A stretch of DNA of 64,000 bases, taken from assembly GCA_963711655.1 (NCBI GenBank), contig CAVQEW010000006.1, positions 66,662-130,661 of the forward strand. The letters are read 5' to 3'. Numbering within the stretch: the first letter of the stretch is position 1; each line of letters opens with the position of its first letter. Shown here piece by piece: positions 13,437 through 61,290 of the stretch. The position numbers and the translations under genes were made by a program. Source of the stretch: an uncultured Actinomycetota bacterium (GTDB lineage: Bacteria > Actinomycetota > UBA4738 > HRBIN12). The notes beneath the pieces were generated by a model. It had not been told where the DNA came from. It worked only from the letters and a program-made list of their open reading frames with translations, and searched no databases.

Positions 13437-13483
13437 GACGACCGATTGCCCCCTCCCTCGGTCGAGGGATACGGTCGGCGTCT

Positions 13484-13507
13484 CCTCCTCCCGTTCGCCC
13501 GAGGAGG
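13484..13507 (+). promoter_or_regulatory. hairpin pairing CCTCCTC with the GAGGAGG Shine-Dalgarno of the RT gene
   Basis: CCTCCTC (13484-13490), a 10-nt loop, then GAGGAGG (13501-13507), which sits 6 nt upstream of the GTG at 13514. Confidence 0.4.
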
Positions 13508-13513
13508 TGCTCC

Positions 13514-16106: not shown

Positions 16107-16472
16107 GTGGCCGAGCGCACGGAAGAGCGCGAAGACGACGAGGTCGGGACGGATCAGGAGCTCGACGATCTCGAGCCGACCGAAGAGGACATCGAGGATG
16201 CCGCGACGACGGTGGACCCACCGACCGCGGACGTCGAATCCATCCACGAGGTGCTCGAGAAACAAGAGGCTCGTGATGACGAGGACGAGGCCGAAGAGGA
16301 CGAGCCCGTGGTGCCGATCGCGACGACGAAGGTGGACGATCGCCTCGAGCCGATCGAGACACGCGTCGTCCCGATCCAGTCGACCGAGTTCGTATGCAAG
16401 AACTGCTATCTCGTGAAGCACCGCAGCCAGCTCGCCGACAAACGGCGGATGTTCTGCCGCGACTGCGCCTGA
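16107..16472 (+). CDS. DUF4193-like acidic protein with C-terminal CxxC...CxxC
   Basis: A long Asp/Glu-rich N-terminus is followed by 'FVCKNCYLVKHRSQLADKRRMFCRDCA'. This matches my recollection of the actinobacterial DUF4193 family. Confidence 0.6.
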   Translation: MAERTEEREDDEVGTDQELDDLEPTEEDIEDAATTVDPPTADVESIHEVLEKQEARDDEDEAEEDEPVVPIATTKVDDRLEPIETRVVPIQSTEFVCKNCYLVKHRSQLADKRRMFCRDCA

Positions 16473-18719
16473 CCGACCGCGGGCTGCCGGTCGCACTCGC
16501 CCTCGCCCTGATCGGAGGCGTGCTCTCGGCGCTCGCCTTCCCACCCGTCGCCGCCTGGCCGCTCGCGATCGTCGCTCCCGCGGTGCTGATCGTTGCCCTG
16601 CGAGCGGCGACACCCGCGCGCGGCTTCGCCCTCGGGCTCATCTATGGACTGGTCGGCTTCGGCCTCACGCTCTCGTGGGTGCTGCTCTTCGGCACGCTGG
16701 CATGGAGCGCGCTGACGCTCCTCGCCGCCCTGTCGGTCGCGCTGTTCGGTGCGGCGTTCCCGCTCGTGCGTCGTGCCGGTCGCCCGATCCTGACCGCGGT
16801 CGGAGCCGCCGCGCTCTGGACCTCGCTCGACTGGCTCCGCGGGCTCTGGCCGCTCGGCGGGTTCACGTGGGGTTCCCTGGGTGTCTCGCAGGTGGCGAAC
16901 CCGATCACCGTTCGGGTCGCCGTCGTGGCGGGCGTGTTCGGTGTGACGTTCGTCGTGGCGTTCGCGGCGGCCCTCCTCGCCGGAAGTGCCACCGGCGGAC
17001 GTCCGCGTGCTCGGCTCGCGTGCGTCGCGCTCGCCGCGGCAGCCCTCCTCGCTCCCGGGGTCATCCCGTTCGCGACCGCCACCGGACGTGCCATCGACGT
17101 CGCGGCGATCCAGGTGGACTTCCGCGAAGGTGTTCGCGGTGCCTCCAGGCAAGAGGGCGACGTCGCCGTGACGAGACTCAACCTGGACCTTCACAGGAGC
17201 TTGCAAGGCAGACCCACCCGACCTGGCCGTCTGGGGGGAGAGCGCCCTCGACCCCGGATCCCTCGCCATCATCGACGAGGTTCGGGCCACGATCGCGGAC
17301 GTCGGGGTGCCGGTGGTGGCCGGGGCGACGTCGACCGACATCCGGCCGAACGCGAGCGATGACGTCTCCTTGTTCAATCAGGCCGTCGTGTTCGACGGCG
17401 GGGGAGCGGTGGTCGACGTCTACCGCAAGACCCACCTGGTCCCGTACGGGGAGTACATCCCCTGGAAGCCGATCGTGGGGTGGATCTCCGCCCTCGAGCA
17501 GATCGCGTACGAGCTCACGCCGGGGGAGCGGCTGCACACACTTTCTGCCCCGGGGCTCCCCGTGTTCGCCGCACCCATCTGCTTCGAGAACAGCTTCCCC
17601 GCGCTGGACCGGGAGCTCGTGCGGCAGGGCGCGGAGTTCCTCGTGGTCCTGACGAACAACGCGGCCTACGACGAGACCGCCGCTTCGCCGCAGCATCTGC
17701 AGATGTCGCGGATGCGGGCGATCGAGGACGGACGATGGATCGTCCACGCCGCCGTGTCGGGGATCAGCGCCTTCATCGATCCCCGCGGCCGCGTGTACGA
17801 CGAGACGGCATTGTTCGCGCCGGGCGTGATCAGGCGGACGATCCAGGCCTCGACCGATCGCACGTGGTCCGTCCGACTGGGCGACGCGCTGCCGATCGTC
17901 TCGCTCGCGATCTTCCTCGGGCTCGCGCTCCTCCCGCGGGGTCGCGGCGAGCAGCGACCGCGACCCGAACCTCTCGCCCCGGGCGCCCGCACCTTGGTGA
18001 TCCTCCCGACCTACGACGAGGCCAAGACGATCCGCGACGTCGTCGACGGCGTCCTCGGCTATCCGGATGTCGAGGTCCTCGTCGTCGACGACTCATCGCC
18101 CGATGGAACGGCCGGCATCGTTCGCGAGCTGATGGCAGGGGAGCCGCGACTCCGCCTCCTCGAGCGCCCGATCAGATCGGGGCTCGCGAGCGCCTACGAG
18201 GAGGGATTCGGCCGCGCGCTCGAGGAGGGCTACGACCTGATCGTCGAGATGGACTCCGATCTCTCGCACGACCCCGCCGAACTGGGCGCCCTGCTCGAGG
18301 CCGCCCGCGACCGCTTCGACCTCGTCGTCGGGAGCCGGTACGTGCCGGGTGGTTCGGTGACGAACTGGAGCCGGCTCCGCCTGACGTTGTCGAGGACCGG
18401 CAACACCTACGCCCGCATGATGCTCGGGGTCCCACTCCAGGATGCGACGAGCGGCTTCCGGGCCTATCGACGAGCGGTGCTGCAGGACCTCGTCGCGCAG
18501 CCCTTCCACGCCGACGGCTACGGCTTCCAGGTCGAGCTCGTGATGCGAGCCTGGCTCCATGGGTGGACGATCGGAGAGGTGCCGATCACGTTCCGCGAAC
18601 GGGAGCACGGGCACTCGAAGCTTTCGAGACGCATCGTGTTCGAGGCGTTGTGGCTCGTGACCCGGTGGGGCCTGGCGCTCAGAGCCCTGGGAAGGCCGTA
18701 CCCCGAGCACACCGCCTAG
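16394..18719 (+). CDS. ppm1: apolipoprotein N-acyltransferase fused to polyprenol-phosphate mannose synthase, frameshift near 17203
   Basis: The N-terminal half has multi-TM Lnt sequence and a CN-hydrolase part ('DLAVWGESAL', 'APICFENSFP'). The C-terminal half is GT2 ('LVILPTYDE', 'VVDDSSPDGT', 'MDSDLSHDP'). The start is not resolved. Confidence 0.75.
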
Positions 18720-19048
18720 GGCCGGCGTGATCCTCGCGAGGAACCCAGGGCGTCCCGACTCGATTCCCGATAACGTCCATTATGTCACCTTGTCCGGGAT
18801 GGCTCCTCCGAGAGCGGTTTCGGCCCCTCTTCTGCGGTCCGTCCCGCGGGTCAGAGCCGGGGTTGTGGGATCCCAGAAGGCCTTCCTTGCTTCGAGACCG
18901 AGTGGGTGCGAAGCTCCGCTCCGGCGGTTGGTACCGGATGGACTGCGACTTCTGGCCGATGGACCCGGTCCCCCGCCTGCCCGTAGGGTGTGGGCCGACC
19001 GGCCGACAGACCGAAGTACCAACGCATCGTGAACGACCAGGAGGAGAC

Positions 19049-21138
19049 ATGACCGGACCGAAGCATCAGGCCCCCAAGCGTGGGGTCTTCCTTGCCCCGG
19101 TCCTCATGATCGCCTTCGCTCTGGGGCAGACCGGCATCCTCGGCGCCCAGGCAGCTCCACCCGTCGACTCCCCCGGTCCCCCCTCGTCGGACGGGGTCCA
19201 GCCGATGATCGCCGACACCCAGTCCTCGAACGACGACTGCGGACAGCTCGGGTTCGATCACGGGATCTCGATCGCGAGCAACGGTCAGGTCTCGGGCGGC
19301 GATCTGACCGTCACGGTCACCGACTACAACAGCCCGACGGGATACGTGGATTGGTCCTCGAACCTCCCGATCCACGGCGTCTACGCCAAGGGCGGACCGA
19401 GCGGCGGCAACCTCTTCAACTACCCGGCCGGCGACACCGGCGACCACGACCTCCATACGCCACAGAAGCCCGACGGTGGCTACTACGCGGTTGAGCCATC
19501 TCGCCTTCTGCTGGAACGACGTCGCGGCCGAGCCCGACGTGTCGATCACCAAGGCGAACGAACCCGCGGGTCCGGTCCTGAACGGCGCCTCGATCACGTA
19601 CACGCTCACGGTCACGAACGGAGGAACCGCCACCGCGACGCAGGTGGAGGTCACCGACGAGCTCCCCGCGGGGGTCACGTTCGTCTCCGCCACCGCGGGA
19701 TGCGACGAGGCCGAGGGTCTCGTCACCTGCGCGCTGGGCGACATCGGCGCCGGTGCCGTCCCTGGGCGTCGACATCACGGTCACCGTCGACGAGGTCTTC
19801 TGCGGCCCGATCGTCAACGCGGCGCATGTCTCGGCGTCGAACGAGACGGGCGGGGCGACCGAGAACAACGACTCGAACGACGTCAGCAACTCCGTCGAGT
19901 GCTCCGAGCCCACTCCGCCCGATCTTCAGGTGACGAAGAGCTCCGACGCCGACGGGATCCTCCACGACGGCGACGACTTCCGCTACACGATCACGGTGAC
20001 CAACGTCGGCGACGAGGAAGCCACCGATGTGGAGCTCGACGACGTCCTGCCGCCCGGAGCCCTGAACGTCGCGATCCCGCCGTTCCCCACGTTCGGCGGC
20101 GAGGCGCTGCACCGTCACGAGCTCCGTCCTCCCCGGCGGCATCCCCCACGCGACGGTGCAGTGCGGTCCGATCGACCTCGGCGCCCGGTGCATCGGCCTC
20201 GGTCACCGTCAGGGTCATCGTCACGGGCGATGTCTGCGGTTCGATCACGAACATCGTGGACGTCGAGGGCTCCAACGAGCCTGCCGAGAACGTCGGCTCC
20301 GACAACCACGCCGAGGCGACCGACCAGGTCGCGTGCGTCCCGCGCATCCGCCTGACGAAGAGCGGGCCCTCACTCGCACACGTCGGTGACACCGTCACCT
20401 ACGTCTTCACGGCCACCAACACCGGTGGCGTGGCCCTGTCGAACATCGACCTCACCGATCCGAAGTGCGACTCGGCGCCGACGCTCACCGCCGACGGGAA
20501 CGGCGACGCCGTCCTCGCGGTGAACGAGCATTGGACCTTCCGCTGCGACCACACGATCACCGCGGGTGACGGCGATCCCGTCCACAACGTGGCGACCGTC
20601 ACGGGCGATCACGAAGGCGGCACCGTCTCGGACACGGACACGCACGACGTCGACGTGATCCATCCGGACATCGAACTCGAGAAGACGGCGAGTCCCACCT
20701 CGGGCCCGGCCGGCACGACCATCGTCTACACCTACGCGGTGACGAACACCGGCGATACGACGCTGTTCGACATCTCGATCGACGACGACACGCTCGGCCA
20801 CGTCGGGGACATCCCTTCGCTCGCAGCCGGACAGACCGCCGAACGCACGTTCGAGATCACCCTGGGCTCCTCCCCCATCACGAACGTCGCCACCGCGAGA
20901 GGTGCCGACGTCCTCGGCGGATCCGTGAGTGACGTCGACGACGCCACCGTCACGGTGGTCGCGGGTGGAGGCGGACGGAGACGGGGACGGCACGGGCGGC
21001 GGCAGCCCCTTCACCGGATCCGACACGGGTCGCCTCTCCGGCTGGATCGGGCTCCTCGTGGCCCTCGGCTCGGTGCTGATCGTGGCCTCCCGGAAGCGTC
21101 CGGAGGCCCGCCCGGAGGGCACGCAGATCGAGGGTTGA
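19049..21138 (+). CDS. DUF11-repeat surface protein 1 with C-terminal SPFTGSD sorting signal, at least 4 frameshifts
   Basis: It has an RBS GGAGGAG and the signal peptide 'VFLAPVLMIAFALGQTGILGAQA'. Repeated 'TYTLTVTNGG/TITVTNVGD/VFTATNTGG/TYAVTNTGD' modules follow. The end is 'SPFTGSDTGRLSGWIGLLVALGSVLIVASRKR'. Frames change near 19485, 19745, 20100-20170 and 20960. Confidence 0.7.
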
Positions 21139-21159
21139 CCGGCCGCGCGAGAGGAGCAC

Positions 21160-21189
21160 GTCCCCTCGGGGACCTGCCTCGTGATTTTT
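21160..21189 (+). terminator. possible terminator after surface gene 1
   Basis: GTCCC-CTCG-GGGAC hairpin, with a TTTTT run (21185-21189) about 12 nt downstream. Confidence 0.35.
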
Positions 21190-21249
21190 CGACCTGTTCC
21201 ATGTTTCTGTCTTGCGCAATCAGCCCATTTCCACCACAATCGGTCCCCT

Positions 21250-21417
21250 CCGAACGGACTACTGCTTCGTCCGGATGGATGTAGGGCCATTCGCCCGATG
21301 GTGTCCCCCGGCTGAGGGGAATACCGTCCGGGCAGCGGACCACGGTCTCCGCCGTAAGGCGCGGCCCGGGTCCATCGGTCGATGGGGGAACCACAACACC
21401 AGTTGGGGAGGTTGAGG
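21250..21417 (+). promoter_or_regulatory. conserved 168-nt 5' leader, copy A (candidate structured RNA)
   Basis: It aligns along its full length with 24031-24198. Shared elements are CCGAT...ATCGG enclosing the hairpins GGTGTCCCC/GGGGAATACC and GGACC...GGTCC. Confidence 0.45.
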
Positions 21418-23953
21418 ATGGGTACCAGGAACTCTCGGCTTCGCCGGCGCGCAACCAAGCGCGGGCTCGCCTCGTTCGTATCGTTCTTGCTGCTGTTCGC
21501 GTTCGCACTCGGACAGAGCTCACTGAGCGCACTGGCGGATGACGCCGGAACCGATCCCGTCGCCGCCGAGGAAGTCCTCTCGGATGGCGGCACGGATGAG
21601 GGCACGCTCCCGGTGGTGGAGGCTCCCGCGGAGCAGGCTCCGGTCGCGAGGAAGCTCCCGCCGAGGAAGCTCCGGCCGAGGAAGCTCCGGCTGCCGAAGC
21701 GGATGGTGAGGCAGACGTCGACGTGAACGCCGGGGCTGCCTCCACGGAGGCGGGCGGAGCCCGCACGCGCCAGATCAATGTCGCCCGCATCGCCCGGACG
21801 ACCTCGATCGCGGCCCCGGCCGCGCCCCCGGGTCCGGACACGCCAGGCGCTCCGTCGGGGCAGGGTCCGCCGATCCTGTTGACGGGCAACCAGAACTGCG
21901 CCCGGTGCTCGGCGACGACCTCCTGTTCGAGTACCGGGACGACCCCCCGCACAGCCACACCGTCGACCTGAGTGCGCGTCCGAGGTGACGTCGAGGGGAC
22001 CCTCGAGATCACGTGCACGGGTCCACGTTCGACTTCAGATCACCGCGGCGATCTGTGGGCCGTCGTCGTGAAGGGCGGACCGAACGCGAACCTGTTCGAC
22101 TACCGGCCGGCCGGAGAGGACGCGGATACCCTCCTGCACGCTCCTGTGAACTCGCAGAACGGTCAGTTCACACCACACTCGATCGCTGGGCAACGAGATC
22201 GCTCGACGGCGACGAGGTCGTGCCCCTGCCGTTCGGCGAGGGACATCGAATACCGTCAGCATCACCGACACGGGCGACCGGAACCGTCGATCGGCGTCAA
22301 CGCGAAAGAGACCCAGGTGACGTGATCACCGGCGACTTCGATCTTCGACTTCTCGTGCCGTTCCCCGTTGGCGGGTCGCCACAGCGGTCGTCACGACATC
22401 CCGCAGCGCGGGTGACCCCGACCCGATCCCACGTCGTGCACTGAAGCTTCGATGCGAGCGCGGGTGGGACCAAGGTCACCGTTCCACATCCTGCACCACC
22501 GACATCACCCGCGAGCCCGGGCATCGACGTCACGAAGTCCTGCCCGGCGGAGGTGCCGTTCGGCGAGGACATCGAGTACACGATCACCGTCACGAACACG
22601 GGCAACGAGGCGCTCGAGACGTCACCGTGAACGACACGCTGCTGGGTGACATCACGGGCGACTTCGACGTCGACTTCGCCAACCCGTTCGCTGTGGGCGC
22701 CACCGCGACCGCGGTCAGTCACGCTACACGCCGCAGGCCGGCGACCCCGACCCGCTCACCAACACGGTGACCGCTCGGGCAGACGGCGCGGACTCGGGTG
22801 TGCAGGCCTCCGACGACGGACATCCTGCACCACCGACATCACGCACGAGCCGGGCATCGACGTCACCAAGTCCTGCCCGGAGTCGGTTCCGTTCGGCGAG
22901 GAGATCGAGTACACGATCACCGTCACCAACACGGGCAACGAGGCGCTCGTCGGCGTCACCGTGAACGACACCCTGCTGGGTGACATCACGGGCGACTTCG
23001 ACGTCGACTTCGCCAACCCGTTCCCTGTGGGTGCCACCGCGACCGCGGTCGTCACCTACACGCCGCAGGCCGGTGACCCCGACCCGCTCACCAACACGGT
23101 GACCGCTTCGGGCAACGGCGCGGACTCGGGTGTGGAGGCCTCCGACGAGGCATCCTGCACCACCGACATCGGCAACCCGAACCCGGCCATCGACGTGGCG
23201 AAGGAGTGCACCGAGCTCGCCCACGTCGGCGACACGGTCACCTACAGGATCACGGTCACCAACACCGGTGACGAAGTCCTCGACGGCGTGACCGTCATGG
23301 ACACCGTGCTCGGAGATCTCTCGGCGTCATTCCCGGACAGCCTCGCGGTCGGTGCCTCCGAGTCCCACGAGTTCGACTACGAGGTGCTCGGCAGTGACCC
23401 CGACCCGCTGGTGAACGAAGTGACGGCGGCGGGGATCGGGACCCAGTCCCAGACCCCGGTGGACGACACGGAGCTCTGTGCCACCGACATCATCCACCCG
23501 GCCATCGAGATCGTGAAGACGGTGGACGAGGACACGGTGCCGATCGGCACGACCGTGACCTTCACCTACGTCGTCACGAACACCGGCGACACCACGCTGT
23601 ACGACATCAGCGTCGACGACGACATCATGGGGCACATCGGGGACATCGAGGTCCTCGAGCCCGGGCAGTCCGTCACGCTGACGAAGGACTTCGTGGTGGG
23701 TGACGTGCCCGTCACCAACGTCGGGACGGCAACCGGTGAGGACATCCTGGGTCACTCGGTGAGCTCCAACGACGATGCCACCGTGACCCCGATCGCCGGC
23801 GAGAACCCCCCGGAGAACCCGGAGAACCCGACGACCCCGTTCACGGGTTCGGACGCGGCACGGCTGGGGGTCATCTCGATGGTCCTGTTCGGGATCGGCG
23901 TGATCGCGGTCGCGACGACCCGCAGGCGCAGGTCGGAGCGCGAGGCCGCGTAA
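21418..23953 (+). pseudogene. DUF11-repeat surface protein 2, heavily frame-disrupted in its 5' half
   Basis: The signal peptide is near-identical in DNA to gene 3. The N-domain is related to gene 1 ('VVVKGGPNANLFDYRPAGEDADTLLHAP'). At least 9 frame breaks lie between 21640 and 22830. From ~22840 to the stop it is an intact frame ending 'TTPFTGSDAARLGVISMVLFGIGVIAVATTRRRR'. Confidence 0.65.
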
Positions 23954-23976
23954 CCGTCGGGCATACGGAACGGAAC

Positions 23977-24003
23977 GGGCGGGGTCCCATCGGGACCCCG
24001 CCC
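23977..24003 (+). terminator. GC-rich hairpin terminator after surface gene 2
   Basis: GGGCGGGGTCCC / GGGACCCCGCCC perfect 12-bp arms, 24 nt after the stop. It is homologous to the hairpin after gene 3. Confidence 0.6.
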
Positions 24004-24030
24004 GGCTTCACTGTTGACGCTCCGAGAAGT

Positions 24031-24198
24031 CCGAACGGACTACTCCATCCGGTCGGAGCCGGACGGGCCATTCGCCCGATGGTGTCCCCCGGATGGAGGG
24101 GTTACCTTTCAAGGCAGCGGACCACAGTCTTCACCGTAGGGCGTGGACCGGGTCCATCGGTCAATCGAAGAACCACAACACCAGTTGGGGGGTGGAAG
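24031..24198 (+). promoter_or_regulatory. conserved 168-nt 5' leader, copy B (candidate structured RNA)
   Basis: This is the paralog of 21250-21417. It carries a compensatory change in the inner stem: CGC..GCG in A versus CAC..GTG in B. Confidence 0.45.
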
Positions 24199-27100
24199 AT
24201 GGGTACCAGGAACTCTCGGCTTCGCCGGCGCGCAACCAAGCGCGGGCTCGCCTCGTTCGTATCGTTCTTGCTGCTGTTCGCGTTCGCACTCGGACAGAGC
24301 TCACTGAGCGCACTGGCGGATGACGCCGGAACCGATCCCGTCGCCGCCGAGGAAGTCCTCTCGGATGGCGGTACGGGTGAGGGCACGCTCCCGGTTGCGG
24401 AGGCTCCCGGCGAGCAGGCTCCGGTTGCGGAAGCTCCCGCCGAGGAAGCTCCCGCCGAGGAAGCTCCGGCACCTGCTGTCGGCAGCGGCGGCGCGGCATC
24501 GACGGATGACGGATCCGCGACGTCCTCGCACCGCGCCCGCAGGGGCACGCGCAACCTCGCGCGAACGAGCCGGGAAGCCGCGATCGCGGCACCGCTCGCG
24601 GCGGACATCGTCGGAGGCGACGTCAACCTCGACTTCGTGGCTGCCGGGCCCTTCACCTACGACCACTCCACCGGCCTCGGTCCGCGCCCGCAGTTCGGCT
24701 ACGACAACCGGACCATCAGCAAGACGAACGGCGTCGTGGAGTCGCTCGAAGGCGGCGACTTCGCCTGCAACGACCTCGTCACGTTCTTCGTGCAGGTCGA
24801 GGTCGAGTCCGGAGCCAGCGGCACCGGCTCGGTGCAGCTCGACATGTCCTTCGGCGCCGAGACGACGGGCCAGCCCGGCCTCGGCTTCGACGACATCGTG
24901 AGCTGGGGCATCAACTCCCCCGACGACGGCAACGTCGGCCTCGACGGGAACGAGACCGTCGTCCAGAACAACGAGACCCTCGACACCTCGGGCTACGACG
25001 AGATCAAGAGCCAGTTCACGGTCTCGAACCTCAGCGCCGGGGAGACGGCGATCGTCCGCATCACCGTCCATCTCGCATGCGAGGTGGGAGCGGACCCGAC
25101 CGGGAACATCCTGAACTCGATCGACGCCGCCCGCGTCGTGGGTGGCAACACGATCAGCGTCGGTCAGCAGACCGTGCCGATGAAGCAGGTCGGCGGGGTC
25201 GCTCCCCTGCCTGGCATCACGGTCACCAAGTCCTGCCCGGAGTCGGTTCCCTTCGGTGAGGAGATCAGCTACGAGATCACGGTCTCGAACACGGGAACGA
25301 GGCGCTGACGGGCCTCTCCGTGACGGACACCTTGCTCGGGAACATCACCGCTGAGTTCCCGAACACGACGCTCGACGTCGGGAGAGGTCAACACCGTGAC
25401 CGTCGGCTACACGCCGCAGGCCGGTGACCCCGACCCGCTCACCAACACGGTGACGGCTGAGGCGGACGGAGGCATCTCCGCCGCTCACGTCTCCGCGACA
25501 GACGACTGCACCACCGACATCACGCACCAGCCGGGCATCGACGTCACCAAGTCCTGCCCGGAGTCGGTTCCGTTCGGCGCGGAGATCGAGTACACGATCA
25601 CCGTCGAGAACACGGGCAACGAGGCGCTCGTCGGCGTCACCGTGAACGACACCCTGCTGGGTGACATCACGGGCGACTTCGACGTCGACTTCGCCAACCC
25701 GTTCCCGGTGGGTGCGACCGCGACCGCGGTCGTCACCTACACGCCGCAGGCCGGTGACCCCGACCCGCTCACCAACACGGTGACCGCTTCGGGCAACGGC
25801 GCGGACTCGGGTGTGGAGGCCTCCGACGAGGCGTCCTGCACCACCGACATCACGCACCAGCCGGGCATCGACGTCACCAAGTCCTGCCCGGAGTCGGTTC
25901 CGTTCGGCGCGGAGATCGAGTACACGATCACCGTGGAGAACACGGGCAACGAGGCGCTCGTCGGCGTCACCGTGAACGACACCCTGCTGGGTGACATCAC
26001 GGGCGACTTCGACGTCGACTTCGCCAACCCGTTCCCGGTGGGTGCGACCGCGACCGCGGTCGTCACCTACACGCCGCAGGCCGGTGACCCCGACCCGCTC
26101 ACCAACACGGTGACCGCTTCGGGCAACGGCGCGGACTCGGGTGTGGAGGCCTCCGACGAGGCGTCCTGCACCACCGACATCAGCACGAGCCGGGCATCGA
26201 CGTCACCAAGTCCTGCCCGGAGTCGGTTCCGTTCGGCGCGGAGATCGAGTACACGATCACCGTCGAGAACACGGGCAACGAGGCGCTCGTCGGCGTCACC
26301 GTGAACGACACCCTGCTGGGTGACATCACGGGCGACTTCGACGTCGACTTCGCCAACCCGTTCCCTGTGGGTGCGACCGCGACCGCGGTCGTCACCTACA
26401 CGCCGCAGGCCGGTGACCCCGACCCGCTCACCAACACGGTGACCGCTTCGGGCAACGGCGCGGACTCGGGTGTGGAGGCCTCCGACGAGGCGTCCTGCAC
26501 CACCGACATCACGCACCAGCCGGGCATCGACGTCACCAAGTCCTGCCCGGAGTCGGTTCCGTTCGGCGCGGAGATCGAGTACACGATCACCGTCGACGAA
26601 CACGGGCAACGAGGCGCTCGTCGGCGTCACCGTGAACGACACCCTGCTGGGTGACATCACGGGCGACTTCGACGTCGACTTCGCCAACCCGTTCCCGGTG
26701 GGTGCGACCGCGACCGCGGTCGTCACCTACACGCCGCAGGCCGGTGACCCCGACCCGCTCACCAACACGGTGACCGCTTCGGGCAACGGCGCGGACTCGG
26801 GTGTGGAGGCCTCCGACGAGGCGTCCTGCACCACCGACATCACGCACCAGCCGGGCATCGACGTCACCAAGTCCTGCCCGGAGGCCGCCGGTGTCGGCGA
26901 CGTGATCACCTACGAGATCACGATCACCAACACGGGCAACGAGGCCCTGGTGGACATCACGGTGAACGACTCGATCCTCGGGGACGTCTCCGACGAGTTC
27001 CCGAGCACGCTCGAGGTCGGTGAGAGCTTCACGGCCTTCATCGACTACACGGTCACCGAGCAGAGCCCCGACCCGATCCACAACGTGGTGACGGCATCGG

Positions 27101-27948
27101 GTCTCGGTGCGGACTCCGAGGTCGAGGCCTCGGACGAGGCGTCCTGCGACACGGACGTCGAGCACCCGGCCATCCAGATCGTCAAGGACGGGCCGGCACT
27201 GGTGCACCGCGGCGACACGATCACCTACCTCTTCGAGGTGACCAACATCGGTGACGTCGACCTGTTCGACGTCGAGCTGACCGACCCGATCTGCGACGAG
27301 GGCACCATCACGCTCGTCGACGACGGCGATGGCGACTCGATGCTCGCGGTCGACGAGGTGTGGCACTTCACGTGCACGCACCTCGTGACCGACGACGACC
27401 CGGACCCGATCCCGAACACGGGCACCGTTACCGGTGACACCGATGAGGGCGAGGGTGGCGACGAGGTCACCGACAGCGATGACCACGTGGTGGACATCAT
27501 CCACCCGGCCATCGATGTCGTGAAGACGGTGGATGAGGACACGGTGCCGATCGGCACGACGGTGACCTTCACCTACGTCGTGACGAACACCGGAGACACC
27601 ACGCTGTACGACATCAGCGTCGACGACGACATCATGGGGCACATCGGGGACATCGAGGTCCTCGAGCCCGGGCAGTCCGTCACGCTGACGAAGGACTTCG
27701 TGGTGGGCGACGAGCCCGTGACGAACGTGGTCACGGTCGAGGGCGAAGACATCCTCGGCCACTCGGTGAGCGCCGATGACGACGCCACCGTGACCCCGAT
27801 CGCCGACGTGAACCCGCCGGAGCCGCCGACCCCGTTCACGGGTTCGGATGCGGGACGGCTGGGGCTCATCTCGGTGGTCCTGTTCGGGATCGGCGTGACC
27901 GTGGTCGCGACGACCCGCAGGCGCCGGCCGGAGCGCGAGGCGGCGTAA
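24199..27948 (+). CDS. DUF11-repeat surface protein 3 with tandem 110-aa modules and TPFTGSD sorting signal, 4 frameshifts
   Basis: The signal peptide is 'RGLASFVSFLLLFAFALGQSSLSALA'. A unique N-domain spans 24600-25200. Repeated 'IDVTKSCPESVPFGAEIEYTITVENTGNEALVGVTVNDTLLGDITGDFDVDF...' modules follow. Frame breaks lie near 25297, 25380, 26176 and 26588. The end is 'PTPFTGSDAGRLGLISVVLFGIGVTVVATTRRRR'. Confidence 0.75.
25408..26882 (+). repeat. tandem array of 330-bp coding repeats (about 4.5 units)
   Basis: The landmark 'TACACGCCGCAGGCCGG' recurs at 25408, 25738, 26068, 26397 and 26728. The periods are 330, 330, 329 and 331 bp. Units are almost identical from ~25507 onward. Confidence 0.9.
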
Positions 27949-27971
27949 CCCTCGAGAGCACGGAAAGGAAC

Positions 27972-27999
27972 GGGGCGGGGTCCGATCGGACCCCGCCCC
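27972..27999 (+). terminator. GC-rich hairpin terminator after surface gene 3
   Basis: GGGGCGGGGTCCGA / TCGGACCCCGCCCC palindrome, 24 nt after the stop. Confidence 0.6.
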
Positions 28000-28039
28000 T
28001 TCCACGTCCGGCCCTGGTTCTCAGGCCGCGATCAGCACC

Positions 28040-28492
28040 TCACCCGACGAAGACCATCGTCACCCACAGGAACCCGTCGTGGGCGTAGACACCGATCCCG
28101 ACACGCCGGAACCGGCGCTCGAGGATGTTGTCGCGATGCCCCTCGCTGTCCATGAACGCCTCGTACAGCGTTCGCATGCTCAGGCCGGCTCCCACGTTCT
28201 CTCCCGCCACGCTCCACGACACGAACGTGAGACTGGAGCTCAGGGACGCCGTGTGGAAGATCCGCCCGGCGTCCGCCATCTGCCGGCTGTGCGCGTCCGC
28301 CATCGCCCGGAGTCGCCATCCCCGATCCAGGACCACCGCGCCGTGCACGCTGCGGGCGTTGTTCATCCATCCGAGCATGTCGCGCCGTGGGGTCCAGGCC
28401 GCACGGGCGCTGGGCGCGACCGCGCTGAGCACGACGGTGAGGGCGAGGGTGAATCCCAAGACCTTGACGGTCCTGACCAGACCTCGTCTCAT
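28040..28492 (-). CDS. secreted CAP/SCP (PR-1-like) domain protein
   Basis: The internal ATG is preceded by AAGGAGG. The signal peptide is 'VKVLGFTLALTVVLSAVAPSARA'. 'GENVG', 'FMDSEGHRDNIL' and 'FRRVGIGV' are CAP-domain motifs. Confidence 0.75.
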   Translation of the reverse strand: MRRGLVRTVKVLGFTLALTVVLSAVAPSARAAWTPRRDMLGWMNNARSVHGAVVLDRGWRLRAMADAHSRQMADAGRIFHTASLSSSLTFVSWSVAGENVGAGLSMRTLYEAFMDSEGHRDNILERRFRRVGIGVYAHDGFLWVTMVFVG

Positions 28493-28633
28493 CGGTTTCG
28501 CCTCCTTCGCCACGGGCGGCACCTTCGGCCGCCCCTGCCACCCGAACATCGGCATGGAGACGAGCAGCCTTGAGACGGAACTGGTCGAAGATGACTAGAC
28601 GGAGCTACTCGCGATGAGGTAGTGGAGAGCGCG

Positions 28634-30109
28634 CTACCAGCGCAGTTTGAGCGCACGCGCGGCCCGTGCCTCGTCGAGGCGACGCACCGGGGTGGTGACC
28701 GGCGCCTCACGGAGGAGCGCCGGCGTCTTCGCGTGCTTCGCGGGCCGCATGCCTGAGGGCCTCGCCGAAGGCGTCGAGGGTGGCCTTCGACTCGGTCTCG
28801 GTGGGCTCGACCATCATCGCCTCCTCGACGACGAGTGGGAAATAGACCGTCGAGGGGTGGAACCCGAGGTCGATCACGCGTTTGGCGACGTCCATCGCCT
28901 TGATGCCGGTGGCGTCCCGGAGGCGCTTCGCGGACGCCACGAACTCGTGCATCGGCCGCATGTCGGGGTGGGCGAGCGGGAACTCCTCCCGACGAGGCGA
29001 GCGAGGTAGTTCGCGTTCAACGCCGCGAGCTCGCTCACCTCCTTCAGCCCGTCGGCCCCGTGGAGGAACACGTAGGCATACGCTCGGACCAGGATCCCGA
29101 TGTTGCCGTGGAAGCCGTGCATGCGGCCGATGGAGCGCTCGCCACCGGGCTCGAGGGAGAACGCACCGTCGTCGCTCCGCTGCACCCTCGGCCCGGGAAG
29201 GTACGGGACGAGCTCCTCGTTGACGCCGACCGGACCCGCGCCGGGCCCCCCTCCCCCGTGCGGGGTCGCGAACGTCTTGTGGGTGTTGATGTGCACGATG
29301 TCGAACCCCATGTCGCCGGGTCGACAGCGGCCGAGGATCGCGTTCAGGTTCGCGCCGTCGTAGTACAGGAGGCCGCCGACGCCGTGGATGATCTCCGCGA
29401 TCTGTTCGATCTCCTCCTCGAAGAGCCCGAGCGTGTTCGGGTTCGTCAGCATGAGACCGGCGACCGATCCGTCCACCAGCTTCGCGAGCGCACCGACATC
29501 GACCAGACCCCGGGCATCCGAGCGCACGGGCACGGCGTCGAACCCGGCCAATCGCACGCTCGCCGGGTTCGTCCCGTGCGCCGAATCCGGGATGATCACG
29601 CGCCGCCTCGGGTCGTCCCGGTCGTCGTGGAACGCTCGCATCAGGAGCAAGCCCGTCATCTCTCCGCACGCACCCGCGGGCGGCTGCAGCGTCGCCCGTG
29701 ACATCCCCGTGATCTCACAGAGCGCGAGCTCCAGTCGCCACAGGACCTCCAGGATGCCTTGCGTCGTCGAGTCCGGCTGCAGCGGGTGCAGACGCTGGAA
29801 CCCGGGCGATGCGGCGACGGTCTCGGCGACCTTCGGGTTGTACTTCATCGTGCAGGAGCCCAAGGGGTACATGCCGGTGTCCAGGCCGTAGTTCATCTGC
29901 GCCAGGCCCGTGTAGTGCCGGACGAGGTCGACCTCCGCCACCTCGGGCAGCGACGGAGGCGCGGCGCGGGCGTGGTCGGCCGACACCGGTGCCTCGGGGA
30001 CGTCGAGGGCGGGGAAGCTCCAGGCCCGGCGCCCCGGCACGGAACGATCGAGGATCGTGCCGCCCTCGCCCGGCCCCTGCCGGCGGATCGGTGCCCCCAC
30101 CGCCTTCAC
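28634..30109 (-). CDS. gcvPB: glycine dehydrogenase (decarboxylating) subunit 2, two frameshifts
   Basis: 'LGSCTMKYNP' and 'HINTHKTFATPHGGGGPG' (PLP lysine region) are present. Frames change near 28988 and 28718. The C-terminus 'TTPVRRLDEARAARALKLRW' ends at a TAG at 28634. Confidence 0.85.
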
Positions 30110-31428
30110 GCGAGCATCTCCCCCATCGCATCGGCGAGGCCGTCGATCTGCTCCTTGGTCCTCCGCTCCGTGACGGCCACGAGCAGCACGTCGTCACCGG
30201 CCCCGGCGAACGGCACACCGGCCAGGTACCCGGACTCCACCAGGCCCTCCACCAGCTCGTCGGCGCGGCCCGGCACGCGGAGCGCGAACTCCTTGAAGAA
30301 CGGGGCCTGGGGATGCAGGAGCGACACCCCGGGGATCTCCGTGAGACGCGCCGCCGCGTAGGAGGCCTTCGCCGCGCTGAGGCGCCCGACCTCGGCGAGG
30401 CCGTCGGGGCCGAGCCACCCGAGGTAGATCGTCGCCGCGACCGCCATCAGCGTCTGGTTCGTGCAGATGTTCGAGTTGGCCTTCTCCCTGCGGATGTGCT
30501 GCTCCCGCGCCTGCAGGGTCAGCACGTACCCCGGCGCACCGTCCAGGTCCACGGTCTCGCCCACGATCCGGCCCGGCATCCGGCGCACGTCCCCCATCCT
30601 CGCGGCGATGAGCCCCAGGTACGGCCCGCCGAACGCGAGATGGTTCCCGAGGGACTGTCCCTCGGCCACGGCGATGTCCGCGCCGAGCTCGCCCGGCGGC
30701 GCCAACACACCCAAGGAGAGGGGATCGAACACCTGGATGGCCTTCGCACCGGCCTCCCGTGCCGACGCGAAGAGATCCGACGCGGGCTCGAGGATCCCGA
30801 GCACGTTGGGGTGCTGGACGACGACGGCCGCGACGTCGCTCCCCACGACCGGCGTCCCGCCGCGGCCTCCCTCGGCATCGAAGACCTCGGGCTCGTAGCC
30901 CGACCCCCGCCCGTACGTCCGGAGGGTGTCGACCAGCCTCGGATCCACGCCGGCGGAGACCAGGACCCGCGTCCGATCGCCGCTCCTCGCCATGTTCACC
31001 GCCTCCACGAGTGCCGTCGCACCGTCGTAGAGGGATGCGTTGGACACATCCATGCCGGTGAGCTCGCAGACCATCGACTGGAACTCGAAGAGCGTCTGCA
31101 GCACGCCCTGCGAGAGCTCCGGCTGGTACGGCGTGTACGAGGTCGCGAACTCCGACCGGGAGGCGAGCGCCCAGACGACCGCCGGGACGTAGTGGTCGTA
31201 CGCACCCGCTCCCGCGAAGCACACCAGGTCGTCGAGATGCCGGTCGCGGCCGGCGAGCCGGCGGAGATCGTCGACGATCTCCAGCTCGGAGACACCGTCC
31301 GGCAGCCCGAGGGGCCCGTCGAGACGCACGGATCGGGGGATCTGGTCGAACAGCGAATCGAGGGACTCGAGACCGATCGCCGAGAGCATCTCGCCGATCT
31401 CGACCTCCGTGTGCGGAGCGAACTTCAC
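30106..31428 (-). CDS. gcvPA: glycine dehydrogenase (decarboxylating) subunit 1
   Basis: 'FAGAGAYDHYVPA' and 'YTPYQPELSQGVLQ' in an intact 440-aa ORF. It has a 4-nt overlap with gcvPB. Confidence 0.9.
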   Translation of the reverse strand: MKFAPHTEVEIGEMLSAIGLESLDSLFDQIPRSVRLDGPLGLPDGVSELEIVDDLRRLAGRDRHLDDLVCFAGAGAYDHYVPAVVWALASRSEFATSYTPYQPELSQGVLQTLFEFQSMVCELTGMDVSNASLYDGATALVEAVNMARSGDRTRVLVSAGVDPRLVDTLRTYGRGSGYEPEVFDAEGGRGGTPVVGSDVAAVVVQHPNVLGILEPASDLFASAREAGAKAIQVFDPLSLGVLAPPGELGADIAVAEGQSLGNHLAFGGPYLGLIAARMGDVRRMPGRIVGETVDLDGAPGYVLTLQAREQHIRREKANSNICTNQTLMAVAATIYLGWLGPDGLAEVGRLSAAKASYAAARLTEIPGVSLLHPQAPFFKEFALRVPGRADELVEGLVESGYLAGVPFAGAGDDVLLVAVTERRTKEQIDGLADAMGEMLA

Positions 31429-32465: not shown

Positions 32466-32929
32466 ATGACGCGCAACCGAAGCTCACTCACCAAGATCGC
32501 CCTCGTCGCTGTGCTCGTGACGGGCCTCATCTCGCTCGCGCCCTCGGCTTCCGCCTCGACGCTCACGCCTCGGGCGCGGATGTACTAGAGCCACGAACAC
32601 CAGCCGCTTGAACAACGATGTCCAGCCGCGTGAACATCCACTGGACGATGTCGAGACTCGCTCGCCGGCACAGCATCGCGATGGCGAACAAGGGCTACAT
32701 CTTCCACACCGCGAATCCGTCTGCGTTCTACCTCGACGGTGTCAACTGGTCCACGTGGGGCGAGAACGTCGGGGTCACGGGAGGCACGGTCGCCAGCATC
32801 CAGAACGCCTTCATGGAGTCGACCGGTCACCGAGCGAACATCCTCAACCAACGCTTCCGGCGTGTGGCGCTCGGTACCTATCGAGACGACGACGGCCTGC
32901 TCTGGGTGACCGTCTTCTTCTACGGCTGA
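32466..32929 (+). CDS. secreted CAP/SCP domain protein (paralog), two frameshifts
   Basis: The signal peptide 'KIALVAVLVTGLISLAPSASA' is in the frame of 32466. Frame shifts lie near 32585 and 32615. The CAP core is 'GENVG...FMESTGHRANILNQRFRRVALG' (ORF 32618..32929). Confidence 0.6.
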
Positions 32930-61277: not shown

Positions 61278-61290
61278 GTGGCCGTACCCG

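What the first reader, a model, noticed from the sequence alone, without database searches (positions are those of the whole stretch)
18720..28010. Island of three mosaic DUF11-repeat surface-protein genes inserted between ppm1 and gcvP
Three same-strand genes (19049-21138, 21418-23953, 24199-27948) encode signal-peptide proteins built from Ig-like 'conserved repeat domain' (DUF11-type) modules, for example '...TYTITVTNTGNEAL..VTVNDTLLGDI...'. Each ends in a sorting signal.

The genes are mosaics of one another:
- Genes 2 and 3 share a near-identical leader and signal-peptide segment (21250-~21650 versus 24031-~24430).
- Genes 2 and 3 also share a near-identical 3' end plus terminator (~23478-24003 versus ~27496-27999).
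- The N-terminal domain of gene 2 ('KGGPNANLFDYRPAGEDADTLLHAP') is the type found in gene 1 ('KGGPSGGNLFNYPAGDTGDHDLHTP').
- Gene 3 has an unrelated N-domain (24600-25200).

This pattern suggests cassette exchange or gene conversion among paralogs, that is, a variable adhesin or S-layer-like repertoire. The block has no counterpart in the mycobacterial gene orders I recall.
Basis: partly seen in the sequence, partly recalled or inferred. Interest (0 to 1): 0.6.

Follow-up and report, generated by a model that had tools for sequence, protein, structure and literature searches.

The report
Wall-anchored adhesin gene trio, error-riddled assembly
Three neighbouring genes of an uncultured soil actinobacterium encode long, stalk-like surface adhesins with interchangeable tip domains; this is an ordinary kind of locus, conserved across the genus, and its many broken reading frames are most likely long-read assembly errors.

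Summary
The three same-strand DUF11/DUF7507 (CLIPPER-type) surface-protein genes are real. Each has a signal peptide, an N-terminal tip domain, a stalk of Ig-like modules and a [ST]PFTG + helix + Arg-rich sorting signal.

None is an intact ORF. Gene 1 has 5 one-base indels, gene 2 at least 11, gene 3 has 4. The flanking housekeeping genes lnt-ppm1 and gcvPB are broken too. The genome carries about 6 frameshift-like events per 10 kb, against 1 or fewer in short-read relatives. Intact orthologues exist, so the breaks are mostly assembly errors.

The "island" is not strain-specific. The order ppm1 > adhesins > CAP < gcvPB holds across the genus with 2-4 genes. In other families of the order the ppm1|gcvPB junction is empty.

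Mosaicism is partly supported:
- The signal-peptide/linker block (97%) and the 330-nt module (97-99.7%) exceed between-species identity (86-90%).
- The leader (81%) and 3' end (89%) are only as conserved as between species.
- Gene 2's tip is a separate "A2" type, with an intact orthologue in another species.

Gene 3's tip belongs to an uncatalogued family that sits at the N-terminus on several stalk and anchor types in three phyla.

Verdict: ordinary sortase-anchored fibrillar adhesins evolving by duplication, module amplification and local gene conversion.

The parts
16394..18719 (+). Left flank: fused lnt-ppm1 gene (apolipoprotein N-acyltransferase + polyprenol-phosphate-mannose synthase). 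It is broken by a 1-nt insertion near 17204.
   Evidence: Three-frame reading. An intact 776-aa fused orthologue exists in G006. The indel was located by alignment.
19049..21138 (+). Gene 1 ('A' type): signal peptide, NA tip domain (~19193-19530), DUF11/DUF7507 stalk, and GSPFTGSD + helix + basic tail (21004-21138). It is broken by five 1-nt insertions (~19488, 19767, 20107, 20183, 20976).
   Evidence: The intact 718-aa orthologue is L016:9446-11602. dN/dS is 0.32 after removing the insertions.
21250..21417 (+). 5' leader of gene 2. Its counterpart before gene 3 is 24031-24198. It is conserved non-coding DNA, not homogenised between the two genes.
   Evidence: 81% identity between the two copies; 77-81% to leaders of other species. 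No Rfam family matches.
21418..23953 (+). Gene 2 ('A2' type): signal peptide + (EAPA)n linker (21418-21700), A2 tip domain (~21855-22180), 4-5 DUF11/DUF7507 modules, and TPFTGSD + helix + RRRR tail. The ORF is intact only from about 22830 onward.
   Evidence: An intact orthologue with the same architecture lies in the short-read MAG L040:~1200-2740.
21650..22830 (+). Indel hotspot within gene 2: at least 11 frame changes in 1.2 kb. This is the part of gene 2 with no near-identical paralogue.
   Evidence: Poisson P is about 3e-10 against the genome-wide rate. Substitutions against L040 are third-position biased at 0.14/0.12/0.31.
24199..27948 (+). Gene 3 ('B' type): signal peptide + (EAPA)n linker, NB tip domain (24580-25224), about 8 DUF11/DUF7507 modules, and TPFTGSD + helix + RRRR tail. 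It has four 1-nt indels (~25293 deletion, 25382 insertion, 26181 deletion, 26597 insertion).
25407..26883 (+). Tandem array of 4.5 nearly identical 330-nt (110-codon) stalk modules. A related 2.1-copy array lies in gene 2 at 22486-23170.
   Evidence: TRF: period 330, 4.5 copies, 97% matches. Copies are 99.3-99.7% identical. Repeat families D1-D6.
27972..27999 (.). Perfect 12-bp G+C-rich hairpin between the convergent stops of gene 3 and the CAP gene. It is a likely bidirectional terminator.
28040..28555 (-). Secreted CAP/SCP-like protein gene. It is part of the conserved right flank in the genus.
   Evidence: ORF list. Syntenic CAP hits occur in 13 of the 15 same-genus relatives' loci.
28707..30109 (-). 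Right flank: gcvPB (glycine dehydrogenase subunit 2). It is broken by a 1-nt deletion in a homopolymer at about 28988 and an insertion near 28725. gcvPA follows at 30106-31428 and is intact.
   Evidence: An intact orthologue exists in G006.

Best explanation
The block is a chromosomal locus, conserved across the genus, of two to four tandem paralogous genes for cell-wall-anchored fibrillar-adhesin-like proteins.

Each protein is probably built and handled as follows:
- It is exported by a Sec-type signal peptide.
- It carries a distal N-terminal tip domain. In this genome the types are NA, A2 and NB.
- The tip sits on a stalk of CnaA-like DUF11/DUF7507 (CLIPPER/CLIPPER_2) modules.
- A sortase cleaves it at a variant sorting signal, [S/T]-[P/A]-F-T-G, and links it to peptidoglycan. 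The genome encodes a class-E-like housekeeping sortase elsewhere.

The family evolves in four ways: tandem gene duplication, amplification of nearly identical 330-nt stalk modules, local gene conversion between paralogues (here the signal-peptide/linker block and one module), and replacement or loss of tip domains between species.

The roughly 20 frameshifts in this copy are mainly uncorrected indel errors of a low-coverage long-read metagenome assembly. They are not biology.

Shown here: domain content, synteny, copy-number and tip variation, the block-wise identity pattern, presence of a sortase, and a genome-wide indel load that is absent from short-read relatives.

Inferred, not shown: adhesion as the function, sortase processing of the variant motif, and error (rather than mutation) as the cause of each individual frameshift.
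For: Domains:
- PF01345 scores up to 133 bits and PF24346 up to 184 bits, both far above cut-off. TIGR01451 scores up to 131 bits.
- All three proteins carry a tripartite C-terminal signal, and they are the only [ST]PFTG-signal ORFs in the assembly.
- A sortase (PF04203, 100 bits) lies at C4:73948-74599, and one is present in 28 of 31 relatives searched.

Synteny:
- lnt-ppm1 > A gene > 1-3 further genes > CAP(-) gcvPB(-) gcvPA(-) in 13 of the 15 same-genus loci examined (11 showing the whole arrangement, 2 cut at the ppm1 end). The exceptions are L028, which has no CAP hit at that position, and L032, whose right end is an inverted repeat. One other genus (L041) has the same order.
- Intact A-A2-B genes occur in a short-read MAG.
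- The ppm1|gcvPB junction is empty, 316 and 784 nt, in two other families.

Block-wise conversion:
- The signal-peptide/linker block is 97% identical within this genome against 86-87% between species. The module is 97-99.7% against 87-90%.
- G006 has two C-termini 98.9% alike against about 90% between species.

Tip domain behaves like an adhesive module:
- The NB profile finds 755 representative clusters, nearly always at residues ~30-260.
- It occurs on DUF11, SpaA_4, Ig_7, I-set and PKD stalks, with LPKTG, [ST]PFTG or T9SS anchors.
- The model is a beta-sandwich with pLDDT 75.

Errors:
- 1396 frameshift-like events, 6.0 per 10 kb, spread over all 15 contigs, against 0-1 per 10 kb in most same-genus loci.
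- Housekeeping genes are broken here but intact in G006.
- Gene 1 dN/dS is 0.32.
- Inside the adhesin genes, Nanopore MAGs show 3.7 events per 10 kb and short-read MAGs 0.39.
- Completeness is only 73% for a 15-contig genome.
- 13 of the 20 related loci (10 of the 15 same-genus ones) come from Nanopore-only MAGs assembled with Flye and polished with one round of Medaka (PMC12313526).

Literature: DUF11 is the CLIPPER isopeptide stalk domain of fibrillar adhesins (bioRxiv 10.1101/2025.04.25.650565; PMC9210967).
Against: - No single indel is therefore proven to be an error.
- The gene 2 hotspot is about 15 times denser than the genome average, and it coincides exactly with the segment that has no near-identical donor. 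That is also what a real pseudogene patched by gene conversion would look like.
- A conserved motif of the tip (LSH[IL]xFC) cannot be found in any frame of gene 2.
- Indels are 78% insertion-type, which is not the usual Nanopore bias (own knowledge).
- Adhesion is inferred from architecture only. Neither tip has a significant structural or sequence match to a characterised binding domain.
- The sorting motif lacks the canonical Leu, and no enzyme-substrate link was tested.
- My frameshift scanner is home-made and produces some false calls in low-complexity linkers.
Confidence: 0.72

Rival explanations
1. At least gene 2 (and perhaps gene 1) is a genuine pseudogene. On this reading the adhesin locus is decaying in this lineage. 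Only the parts of gene 2 that can be overwritten by gene conversion from the functional gene 3 stay clean.
For: - The hotspot of at least 11 frame changes lies exactly in the 1.2 kb of gene 2 that has no near-identical paralogue. The converted signal-peptide block and the 3' modules are clean.
- The density is about 15 times the genome rate, P about 3e-10.
- The nearly invariant LSH[IL]xFC motif of the tip is not recoverable.
- Gene 1's five breaks are also above expectation, P about 0.009.
- Gene A has lost its tip domain in other species (L027, L028, L033), so loss of function parts does occur in this family.
Against: - Substitutions between gene 2's tip and the intact L040 orthologue are third-position biased (0.14/0.12/0.31). 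This matches functional gene 1 against its orthologue (0.16/0.14/0.33). An old pseudogene should not show this.
- Gene 1 dN/dS is 0.32.
- Frame breaks inside these genes appear only in Nanopore MAGs, above all the low-quality ones, and not in short-read MAGs.
- Housekeeping genes in the same window are broken too.
Confidence: 0.2
2. The mosaic pattern is an assembly artefact. Reads from several co-existing strains or from paralogous repeats were merged into a chimeric consensus, so gene 2 as written does not exist in any one cell.
For: - The assembly is demonstrably error-rich.
- The hotspot could mark a stretch with very low or mixed coverage.
- A sister MAG (L032) ends in an inverted copy of B-type genes, which looks like a misjoin.
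- Reads could not be checked.
Against: - The same A-A2-B gene order, with an intact A2 gene, is present in an independent short-read MAG of another species.
- Multi-gene versions of the locus recur in more than 15 assemblies made with two technologies.
- The shared blocks (0.23-0.5 kb) are much shorter than long reads, so collapse is unlikely (inference).
Confidence: 0.07
3. The frameshifts are functional. They would represent either phase-variable on/off switching of surface proteins by slipped-strand mispairing, or programmed +1 frameshifting / quadruplet decoding.
For: - All five breaks in gene 1 are +1 insertions, and 78% of genome-wide events are insertion-type.
- Surface adhesins are classic contingency genes (established knowledge).
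Against: - The sites have no homopolymer or short-repeat tract beyond 2-4 bases and share no motif. Contexts are GCG[C]TGC, GGC[G]CCC, GGA[C]GGA, TTG[C]AAG and GGC[G]TCT.
- Deletions occur as well.
- Orthologues in cleaner assemblies are simple open frames at the same positions.
- About 1400 sites per 2.3 Mb, including metabolic genes, is not a regulatory pattern.
Confidence: 0.02
4. The proteins are not adhesins. They would instead be subunits of a sortase-assembled pilus or of an S-layer-like coat.
For: - DUF11/CnaA-like modules also build Gram-positive pilins. Foldseek lists pilins (EbpB, RrgB, SpaD) among weak matches of the NB model.
- TIGR04226 (pilin isopeptide domain) scores 32.5 bits in the G006 orthologue.
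- The three proteins are the only obvious sortase substrates of this type in the genome.
Against: - There is no sortase gene in or next to the locus in any of the genomes. The sortases lie on other contigs.
- No pilin-motif or class-C sortase evidence was found.
- The sizes (700-1250 aa), with a distinct distal tip and a variable-length stalk, fit fibrillar adhesins (PMC9210967).
- No S-layer homology domain was hit.
Confidence: 0.05

Closest known systems
Fibrillar adhesins with CLIPPER (DUF11, PF01345) / CLIPPER_2 (DUF7507, PF24346) stalks (bioRxiv 10.1101/2025.04.25.650565, PDB 9IFR; Monzon et al., PMC9210967)
   Same: The layout is the same: signal peptide, distal N-terminal non-stalk domain, tandem CnaA-like DUF11/DUF7507 modules, and a C-terminal sorting signal. 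Pfam hits are far above threshold. The modules keep a Cys-Thr-Thr motif near their end and conserved Lys/Asp/Asn positions, as seen directly in the sequence.
   Different: - The tip domains (NA, A2, NB) match no Pfam, NCBIfam or PDB entry.
- The isopeptide triad was not verified; a single module gave no sequence match to 9IFR.
- The anchor motif is [ST]PFTG, not one of the motifs listed for the class.
- The host is an uncultured soil actinobacterium rather than a host-associated organism.
Sortase substrates with LPXTG / LAXTG cell-wall sorting signals (class E housekeeping sortases of Actinomycetota, e.g. Streptomyces SrtE; PMC5148588)
   Same: The signal is tripartite: pentapeptide ending in TG, hydrophobic helix, Arg-rich tail. 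The genome has a class-E-like sortase with a TLxTC-type active-site motif (LVLTTCHP). There are weak NCBIfam matches to LAXTG/LAETG signal models.
   Different: Position 1 is Ser/Thr (Val in another genus) instead of Leu, and position 3 is always Phe. No experiment links this motif to a sortase. A class F sortase with its own xPQTG substrate is also present.
Periscope proteins (variable-length surface proteins with highly identical tandem repeats, e.g. SasG; mentioned in PMC9210967; the rest from own knowledge)
   Same: Gene 3 has 4.5 tandem 330-nt modules at 99.3-99.7% identity. G006 has three nearly identical modules in its B gene. Module number differs between species.
   Different: Length variation within a species or population was not observable here. 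A distinct tip domain is present.
Concerted evolution / gene conversion among tandem adhesin paralogues (general phenomenon, own knowledge)
   Same: Selected blocks are more alike within a genome than between orthologues.
   Different: The conversion is patchy and species-specific. In most genomes the paralogues keep orthologous relationships. There is no evidence for a programmed cassette-switching mechanism and no recombinase in the locus.

Membership tests
DUF11/CLIPPER and DUF7507/CLIPPER_2 repeat proteins | Pfam PF01345 / PF24346 (and TIGR01451) match above the curated cut-off, in several tandem copies | tested here: met
   Gene 2 C-terminal part scores 119.7 bits for PF24346 and 67.7 bits for PF01345. 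Gene 3 C-terminal part scores 150 and 50.8 bits. The G006 orthologue of gene 1 scores 141 and 133 bits. Cut-offs are 27 and 24.6 bits. TIGR01451 scores 65-131 bits.
DUF11/CLIPPER and DUF7507/CLIPPER_2 repeat proteins | Intramolecular Lys-Asn isopeptide bond with a catalytic Asp/Glu | tested here: inconclusive
   TIGR04226 (isopeptide-forming domain) scores 32.5 bits in the G006 orthologue, just above its 30-bit cut-off, and is below cut-off in this window's pieces. A single module did not align to PDB 9IFR. No stalk module was modelled.
Fibrillar adhesins (Monzon/Bateman definition) | Stalk of repeated domains plus a cell-surface anchor and a signal peptide | tested here: met
Fibrillar adhesins (Monzon/Bateman definition) | A recognised adhesive (ligand-binding) domain distal to the anchor | tested here: inconclusive
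   - N-terminal domains are present but uncatalogued. There is no Pfam/NCBIfam hit and no PDB sequence hit.
- The NB model is a beta-sandwich with only weak Foldseek matches, TM 0.35-0.45. The NA model has no match.
- The position of NB and its shuffling across stalks are suggestive.
Sortase-dependent (LPXTG/LAXTG) wall-anchored proteins | Canonical pentapeptide LPXTG or LAXTG | tested here: not met
   The motif reads SPFTG (gene 1) and TPFTG (genes 2 and 3). Relatives have TAFTG, VAFTG, TPFTG and SAFTG.
Sortase-dependent (LPXTG/LAXTG) wall-anchored proteins | Hydrophobic segment and positively charged tail after the motif, and a sortase encoded in the genome | tested here: met
   Tails are shown. 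PF04203 scores 100.4 bits at C4, and a second, frameshifted class-F-like copy lies on C14.
Sortase-dependent (LPXTG/LAXTG) wall-anchored proteins | Cleavage at T/G and covalent linkage to peptidoglycan | not testable with these tools
   Needs biochemistry.
Genomic island (recent horizontal acquisition) | Deviant composition, mobility genes, and patchy presence among close relatives | tested here: not met
   G+C is 0.65-0.72 inside and 0.66-0.73 outside. There is no integrase, transposase or tRNA in the block. At least one of the two tip-domain types was found in 22 of the 24 same-genus genomes searched. The locus lies next to ppm1/gcvP wherever contigs are long enough, including all 15 same-genus loci examined in detail.
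Genomic island (recent horizontal acquisition) | Empty target site in outgroups | tested here: met
   The ppm1 and gcvPB stops are 316 nt apart in G035 and 784 nt apart in G039. By coordinates the gap is at most about 0.9 kb in G026, G033 and G037. The insertion is therefore old, at genus/family level.
Phase-variable contingency genes | Frameshifts located in homopolymer or short tandem-repeat tracts | tested here: not met
   Contexts of the located indels show no such tracts, apart from one CCCC run in gcvPB.
Sortase-assembled pili | Dedicated (class C) sortase gene within the pilin cluster | tested here: not met
   There is no sortase hit within any of the 20-kb loci. The sortases are on other contigs.
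Periscope-type variable-length surface proteins | Long tandem DNA repeats of very high identity that encode whole stalk domains | tested here: met
   4.5 x 330 nt, 97% by TRF and 99.3-99.7% pairwise.
Periscope-type variable-length surface proteins | Repeat-number variation between strains of one species | not testable with these tools
   Only one genome per species is available and no reads could be used. Between species, module numbers differ.

The most novel reading that the evidence does not exclude
The locus could be a population-level cassette site. On this reading, the conserved signal-peptide/linker block at the 5' end and the conserved stalk/C-terminal blocks at the 3' end act as recombination arms. 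These arms would swap whole tip domains (NA, A2, NB, types C/D, or none) between paralogues and between co-existing strains. The extreme indel hotspot in gene 2 would then mark a segment where several alleles co-occur in the sampled population and the consensus broke down. This would make it a recombination-driven adhesin 'tip shuffling' system in soil Actinomycetota. It would be coupled to a lineage-specific sortase specificity ([S/T/V]-[P/A]-F-T-G).
Probability: 0.15. Interest if true: 0.5.

Novelty: new member of a known kind. Interest (0 to 1): 0.3.

Why it matters
Practical lessons:
- The broken frames in this genome, about 1 per 1.7 kb, are an assembly property. Any 'pseudogene', 'split gene' or 'recoding' call in its windows should be discounted.
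- In Nanopore MAGs of this genus the repeat-rich adhesin genes are the worst affected.

Biological lessons:
- The locus gives a clean comparative picture of how an uncultured soil actinobacterial genus diversifies its surface. One fixed chromosomal site holds 2-4 sortase-type adhesins, and their tips are replaced, duplicated or lost between species.
- It also flags an uncatalogued N-terminal domain family (NB, about 750 clusters at 50% identity). This family sits at the tip of surface proteins on at least five stalk types and three anchoring systems in three phyla. It is a reasonable candidate for a new adhesive-domain entry and for binding studies.

None of this changes current concepts.

Tried and rejected
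Read support, coverage and strain heterogeneity could not be examined.
- Rfam on 18000-29000 gave only chance-level hits: 5S rRNA at 23.7 bits against a 38-bit cut-off, and a miRNA. No known riboswitch or leader family was found.
- PDB sequence searches gave nothing meaningful for the NB profile, the NA profile or a stalk module.
- Foldseek on the NB model gave only generic beta-sandwich matches, TM 0.35-0.45: integrin alpha Ig-like domains, pilins, CLIPPER 9IFR and cohesins.
- Foldseek on the NA model gave no match with E < 0.5, and only 1 of 5 models was confident. No ligand could be inferred.
- My first codon-model Viterbi made spurious shifts in the (EAPA)n linker and at gene ends. Frameshift positions were therefore fixed by alignment to orthologues where possible.
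- Counting gap runs in nucleotide alignments of diverged paralogues was uninformative, because an intact control also gave many gaps.
- The promoter scan found nothing.
I switched to the search for related loci for offline work.
- A DGR-type link between the nearby reverse transcriptase (13437-15728) and the variable genes was considered but not pursued. The variation consists of indels and domain swaps, not A-to-N substitutions.

Full report
**What is in the sequence**

The three same-strand coding regions exist at the stated coordinates. Conceptually, gene 1 runs 19049-21138, gene 2 runs 21418-23953 and gene 3 runs 24199-27948.

Each starts with a Sec-type signal peptide. Each ends with a short motif (GSPFTGSD or TPFTGSD), a hydrophobic helix and a basic tail. 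The bodies are built from DUF11 (PF01345), DUF7507 (PF24346) and TIGR01451 modules, all far above the curated thresholds.

Gene 3 contains a tandem array of 4.5 copies of a 330-nt module that are 99.3-99.7% identical.

None of the three is a continuous ORF:
- Gene 1 needs five frame changes.
- Gene 2 needs at least eleven, all between 21650 and 22830.
- Gene 3 needs four.

**Are the frameshifts real?**

The same problem affects the flanking housekeeping genes.
- The fused lnt-ppm1 gene changes frame near 17204.
- gcvPB changes frame near 28988 (a G/C homopolymer) and near 28725.

In the same-genus genome G006 the orthologues are plain open frames. These are a 776-aa Lnt-Ppm1, gcvPB, and a 718-aa orthologue of gene 1.

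A nucleotide alignment of gene 1 with that orthologue (87% identity) shows five single-base insertions in the window. These are mostly C or G outside homopolymers, plus in-frame indels. After removing the five bases, differences fall 0.16/0.14/0.33 on codon positions 1/2/3 and dN/dS is 0.32. This is the pattern of a gene under purifying selection.

I wrote a codon-usage Viterbi scanner that allows +1/-1 jumps. Its results:
- 1396 frameshift-like events in the 2.34-Mb assembly, 6.0 per 10 kb, spread evenly over all 15 contigs. Of these, 78% are insertion-type.
- 0-1 per 10 kb in most same-genus loci, including nearly all the short-read MAG loci (one more distant short-read locus reaches 2.7). 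Two other poor long-read MAGs give 6-7 per 10 kb.
- Inside the adhesin genes of relatives, 3.7 per 10 kb in Nanopore MAGs and 0.39 in short-read MAGs. Outside these genes both are 1 or fewer.

Five of the ten Nanopore MAGs of the genus have completely open adhesin genes.

Thirteen of the 20 related loci (10 of the 15 same-genus ones) come from 'MFD...' MAGs. Those MAGs are Nanopore-only Flye assemblies polished with one round of Medaka (PMC12313526). The window's genome is 73% 'complete' despite only 15 contigs, which is typical of frame-broken marker genes.

The indel sites share no motif and lie in no repeat tract. That argues against phase variation and against programmed frameshifting.

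I conclude that most breaks are assembly errors.

**The gene 2 hotspot**

The 1.2 kb at 21650-22830 carries about 15 times the genome's indel density, P about 3e-10. It is exactly the part of gene 2 that has no near-identical paralogue.

Evidence pointing to real decay:
- The position of the hotspot fits a pseudogene that is patched elsewhere by gene conversion.
- The nearly invariant LSH[IL]xFC motif of the tip is not recoverable in any frame.

Evidence pointing to a recent or artefactual cause:
- Substitutions against the intact orthologue in L040 are third-position biased at 0.14/0.12/0.31. This argues against an old pseudogene.

A local collapse of consensus quality, from low coverage or mixed alleles, and a recent true pseudogene both remain possible. 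I put the real-pseudogene reading at about 0.2.

**Comparative anatomy**

Searches with the two tip domains and with ppm1/gcvPA were run in 40 relatives. In addition, 20 fetched loci were analysed offline.

The order lnt-ppm1 > 'A' gene > one to three further adhesin genes > CAP(-) > gcvPB(-) > gcvPA(-) is conserved in 13 of the 15 same-genus loci examined (11 showing the whole arrangement, 2 cut at the ppm1 end). L028 has no CAP hit there, and L032 ends in an inverted copy of B-type genes. One more distant genus (L041; ppm1 57%, gcvPA 71% identical) has the same order.

Copy number is 2-4. The tip types seen are:
- NA, the gene-1 type.
- A2, the gene-2 type. It is intact in the short-read MAG L040, in the same second position, with its own signal peptide.
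- NB, the gene-3 type, often in two diverged copies.
- No tip at all: gene A of L027, L028 and L033.
- Further types: the fourth gene of L031, and genes 1-2 of L041.

In three species an unrelated block (AraC-like, VOC, UvrA-like) lies between ppm1 and gene A.

In other families of the same order the convergent ppm1 and gcvPB genes abut. The gap is 316 nt in G035 and 784 nt in G039, and similar by coordinates in G026, G033 and G037.

The block is therefore an old insertion into a conserved junction, fixed at genus level or above. It is not a recent island. Its G+C equals the flanks, and no mobility genes are present.

**Mosaicism**

Block-wise identities between genes 2 and 3, compared with their orthologues in other species:

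| Block | Within this genome | Between species |
|---|---|---|
| Signal peptide + linker (231 nt) | 97% | 86-87% |
| 330-nt module, gene 2 vs gene 3 | 97-98% | 87-90% |
| 330-nt module, copies within gene 3 | 99.3-99.7% | 87-90% |
| 168-nt leader | 81% | 77-81% |
| C-terminal 468 nt | 89% | 88.7% |

Two blocks are thus homogenised within the genome, by gene conversion or by recent amplification. The leader and the 3' end are simply conserved features of the family.

Elsewhere in the genus the pattern is sporadic. G006 has two C-termini 98.9% alike against about 90% between species. Most genomes keep orthologous relationships.

Gene 1 shares no nucleotide block of 78% identity or more with genes 2 or 3.

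The 'cassette exchange' idea is therefore partly right for the 5' block and the stalk modules. It is wrong for gene 2's tip, which is an orthologous A2 type rather than a copy of gene 1's.

**Function**

The architecture is that of fibrillar adhesins: signal peptide, distal domain, repeated stalk, anchor (PMC9210967).

DUF11 and DUF7507 were recently renamed CLIPPER and CLIPPER_2. They were shown to be CnaA-like isopeptide-stabilised stalk domains (bioRxiv 10.1101/2025.04.25.650565, PDB 9IFR). I did not verify the isopeptide triad here.

The NB tip:
- It is a roughly 200-residue beta-sandwich (AF2 pLDDT 75) with only generic fold matches.
- A profile search finds 755 representative clusters, and the domain almost always sits at residues ~30-260.
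- In eight sampled homologues the tip region has no Pfam match. The downstream stalks are DUF11/DUF7507, SpaA_4, Ig_7, I-set or PKD, with sortase or T9SS anchors.
- This shuffling is what adhesive tip domains do, but no ligand can be named.

The NA tip gave a low-confidence model with no match.

**Anchoring**

The genome encodes a class-E-like sortase at C4:73948-74599, with an LVLTTCHP active-site motif. It also encodes a frameshifted class-F-like sortase on C14, next to its own xPQTG substrate.

The three island proteins are the only ORFs with the [ST]PFTG signal. They are also the only members of this family in the assembly. Relatives use TAFTG, VAFTG or SAFTG.

Processing by the housekeeping sortase is the most likely mechanism, but it is inferred.

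**Earlier notes of this scan**

Notes on sister genomes (e1-1476615, e1-751010) reached the same general reading. They also pointed me to the CLIPPER literature, which I then read.

**Verdict**

This is a real but ordinary locus of sortase-type fibrillar adhesins. It is conserved in the genus and diversifies by duplication, module amplification, patchy gene conversion and tip replacement. It was read here from an indel-rich long-read MAG.

The novelty is limited to uncatalogued tip domains and a variant sorting motif.

Noticed in passing
whole genome G000 (all 15 contigs); window examples at 905, 2824, 3797-4039, 5018, 10386, 14236, 40052, 45673, 55058-56549, 58431-61396: There are about 1400 frameshift-like events genome-wide, 6 per 10 kb, and 78% are insertion-type. 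This is an indel-rich assembly. Any split-gene, pseudogene or recoding finding in this genome needs that caveat.
   Followed up: yes
G000 C14:~229000-230200 (outside the window): A class-F-like sortase, itself frameshifted, lies directly downstream of a Ser/Pro-rich repeat protein that ends in GGPQTGS...helix...RRRVVRRG. This is a second sortase/substrate pair with a different motif.
   Followed up: partly
window 24580-25224 (NB domain); L045:10001-10615, L046:5767-6414, L042/L043: The NB tip domain belongs to an uncatalogued family of 755 clusters at 50% identity, with no Pfam match. It sits at the N-terminus of surface proteins in Actinomycetota, Bacteroidota (Nibribacter koreensis, with a T9SS tail) and Planctomycetota, on at least five stalk types.
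   Followed up: partly
window 21250-21417 and 24031-24198; L034:9413, L034:5072, L027:7011, L033:12238: The roughly 168-nt leader upstream of B/A2-type genes is conserved at 77-81% across species, although it is non-coding. No Rfam family matches. It may be a regulatory RNA or a promoter region.
   Followed up: partly
L027:1100-5270, L033:3493-7300, L044:2443-6806: In three species a block of unrelated genes (AraC-type regulator, VOC/glyoxalase, a DUF1801-like protein and a UvrA-like ABC ATPase) lies between ppm1 and the first adhesin gene. The ppm1 junction is a recurrent insertion site.
   Followed up: no
L031:12850-15072 and L041:4974-8048: A further tip type is shared by two genera. It has a conserved 'ICH...GDH/LDHTGP...WGDIIPPF...NW...QAI...GC' region and precedes DUF11 modules.
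   Followed up: no
L032:15309-18985: The sister MAG (G001, 58% complete) ends in an inverted copy of B-type adhesin genes with many frame breaks. This is probably a misassembly at the repeat-rich locus.
   Followed up: no
L028:7013-7369, L027:5273-6886, L033:7585-9300: The gene-A orthologues of three species have lost the NA tip domain. It is replaced by a short acidic linker, while the signal peptide, stalk and anchor are kept.
   Followed up: partly
window 28040-28555 (-) and ~32466-32929 (+): Two diverged CAP/SCP-like secreted protein genes bracket the gcvPB-gcvPA block. Both copies are syntenic in most loci of the genus. The CAP gene next to the adhesins is absent from the 'empty' junction of G035.
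   Followed up: partly
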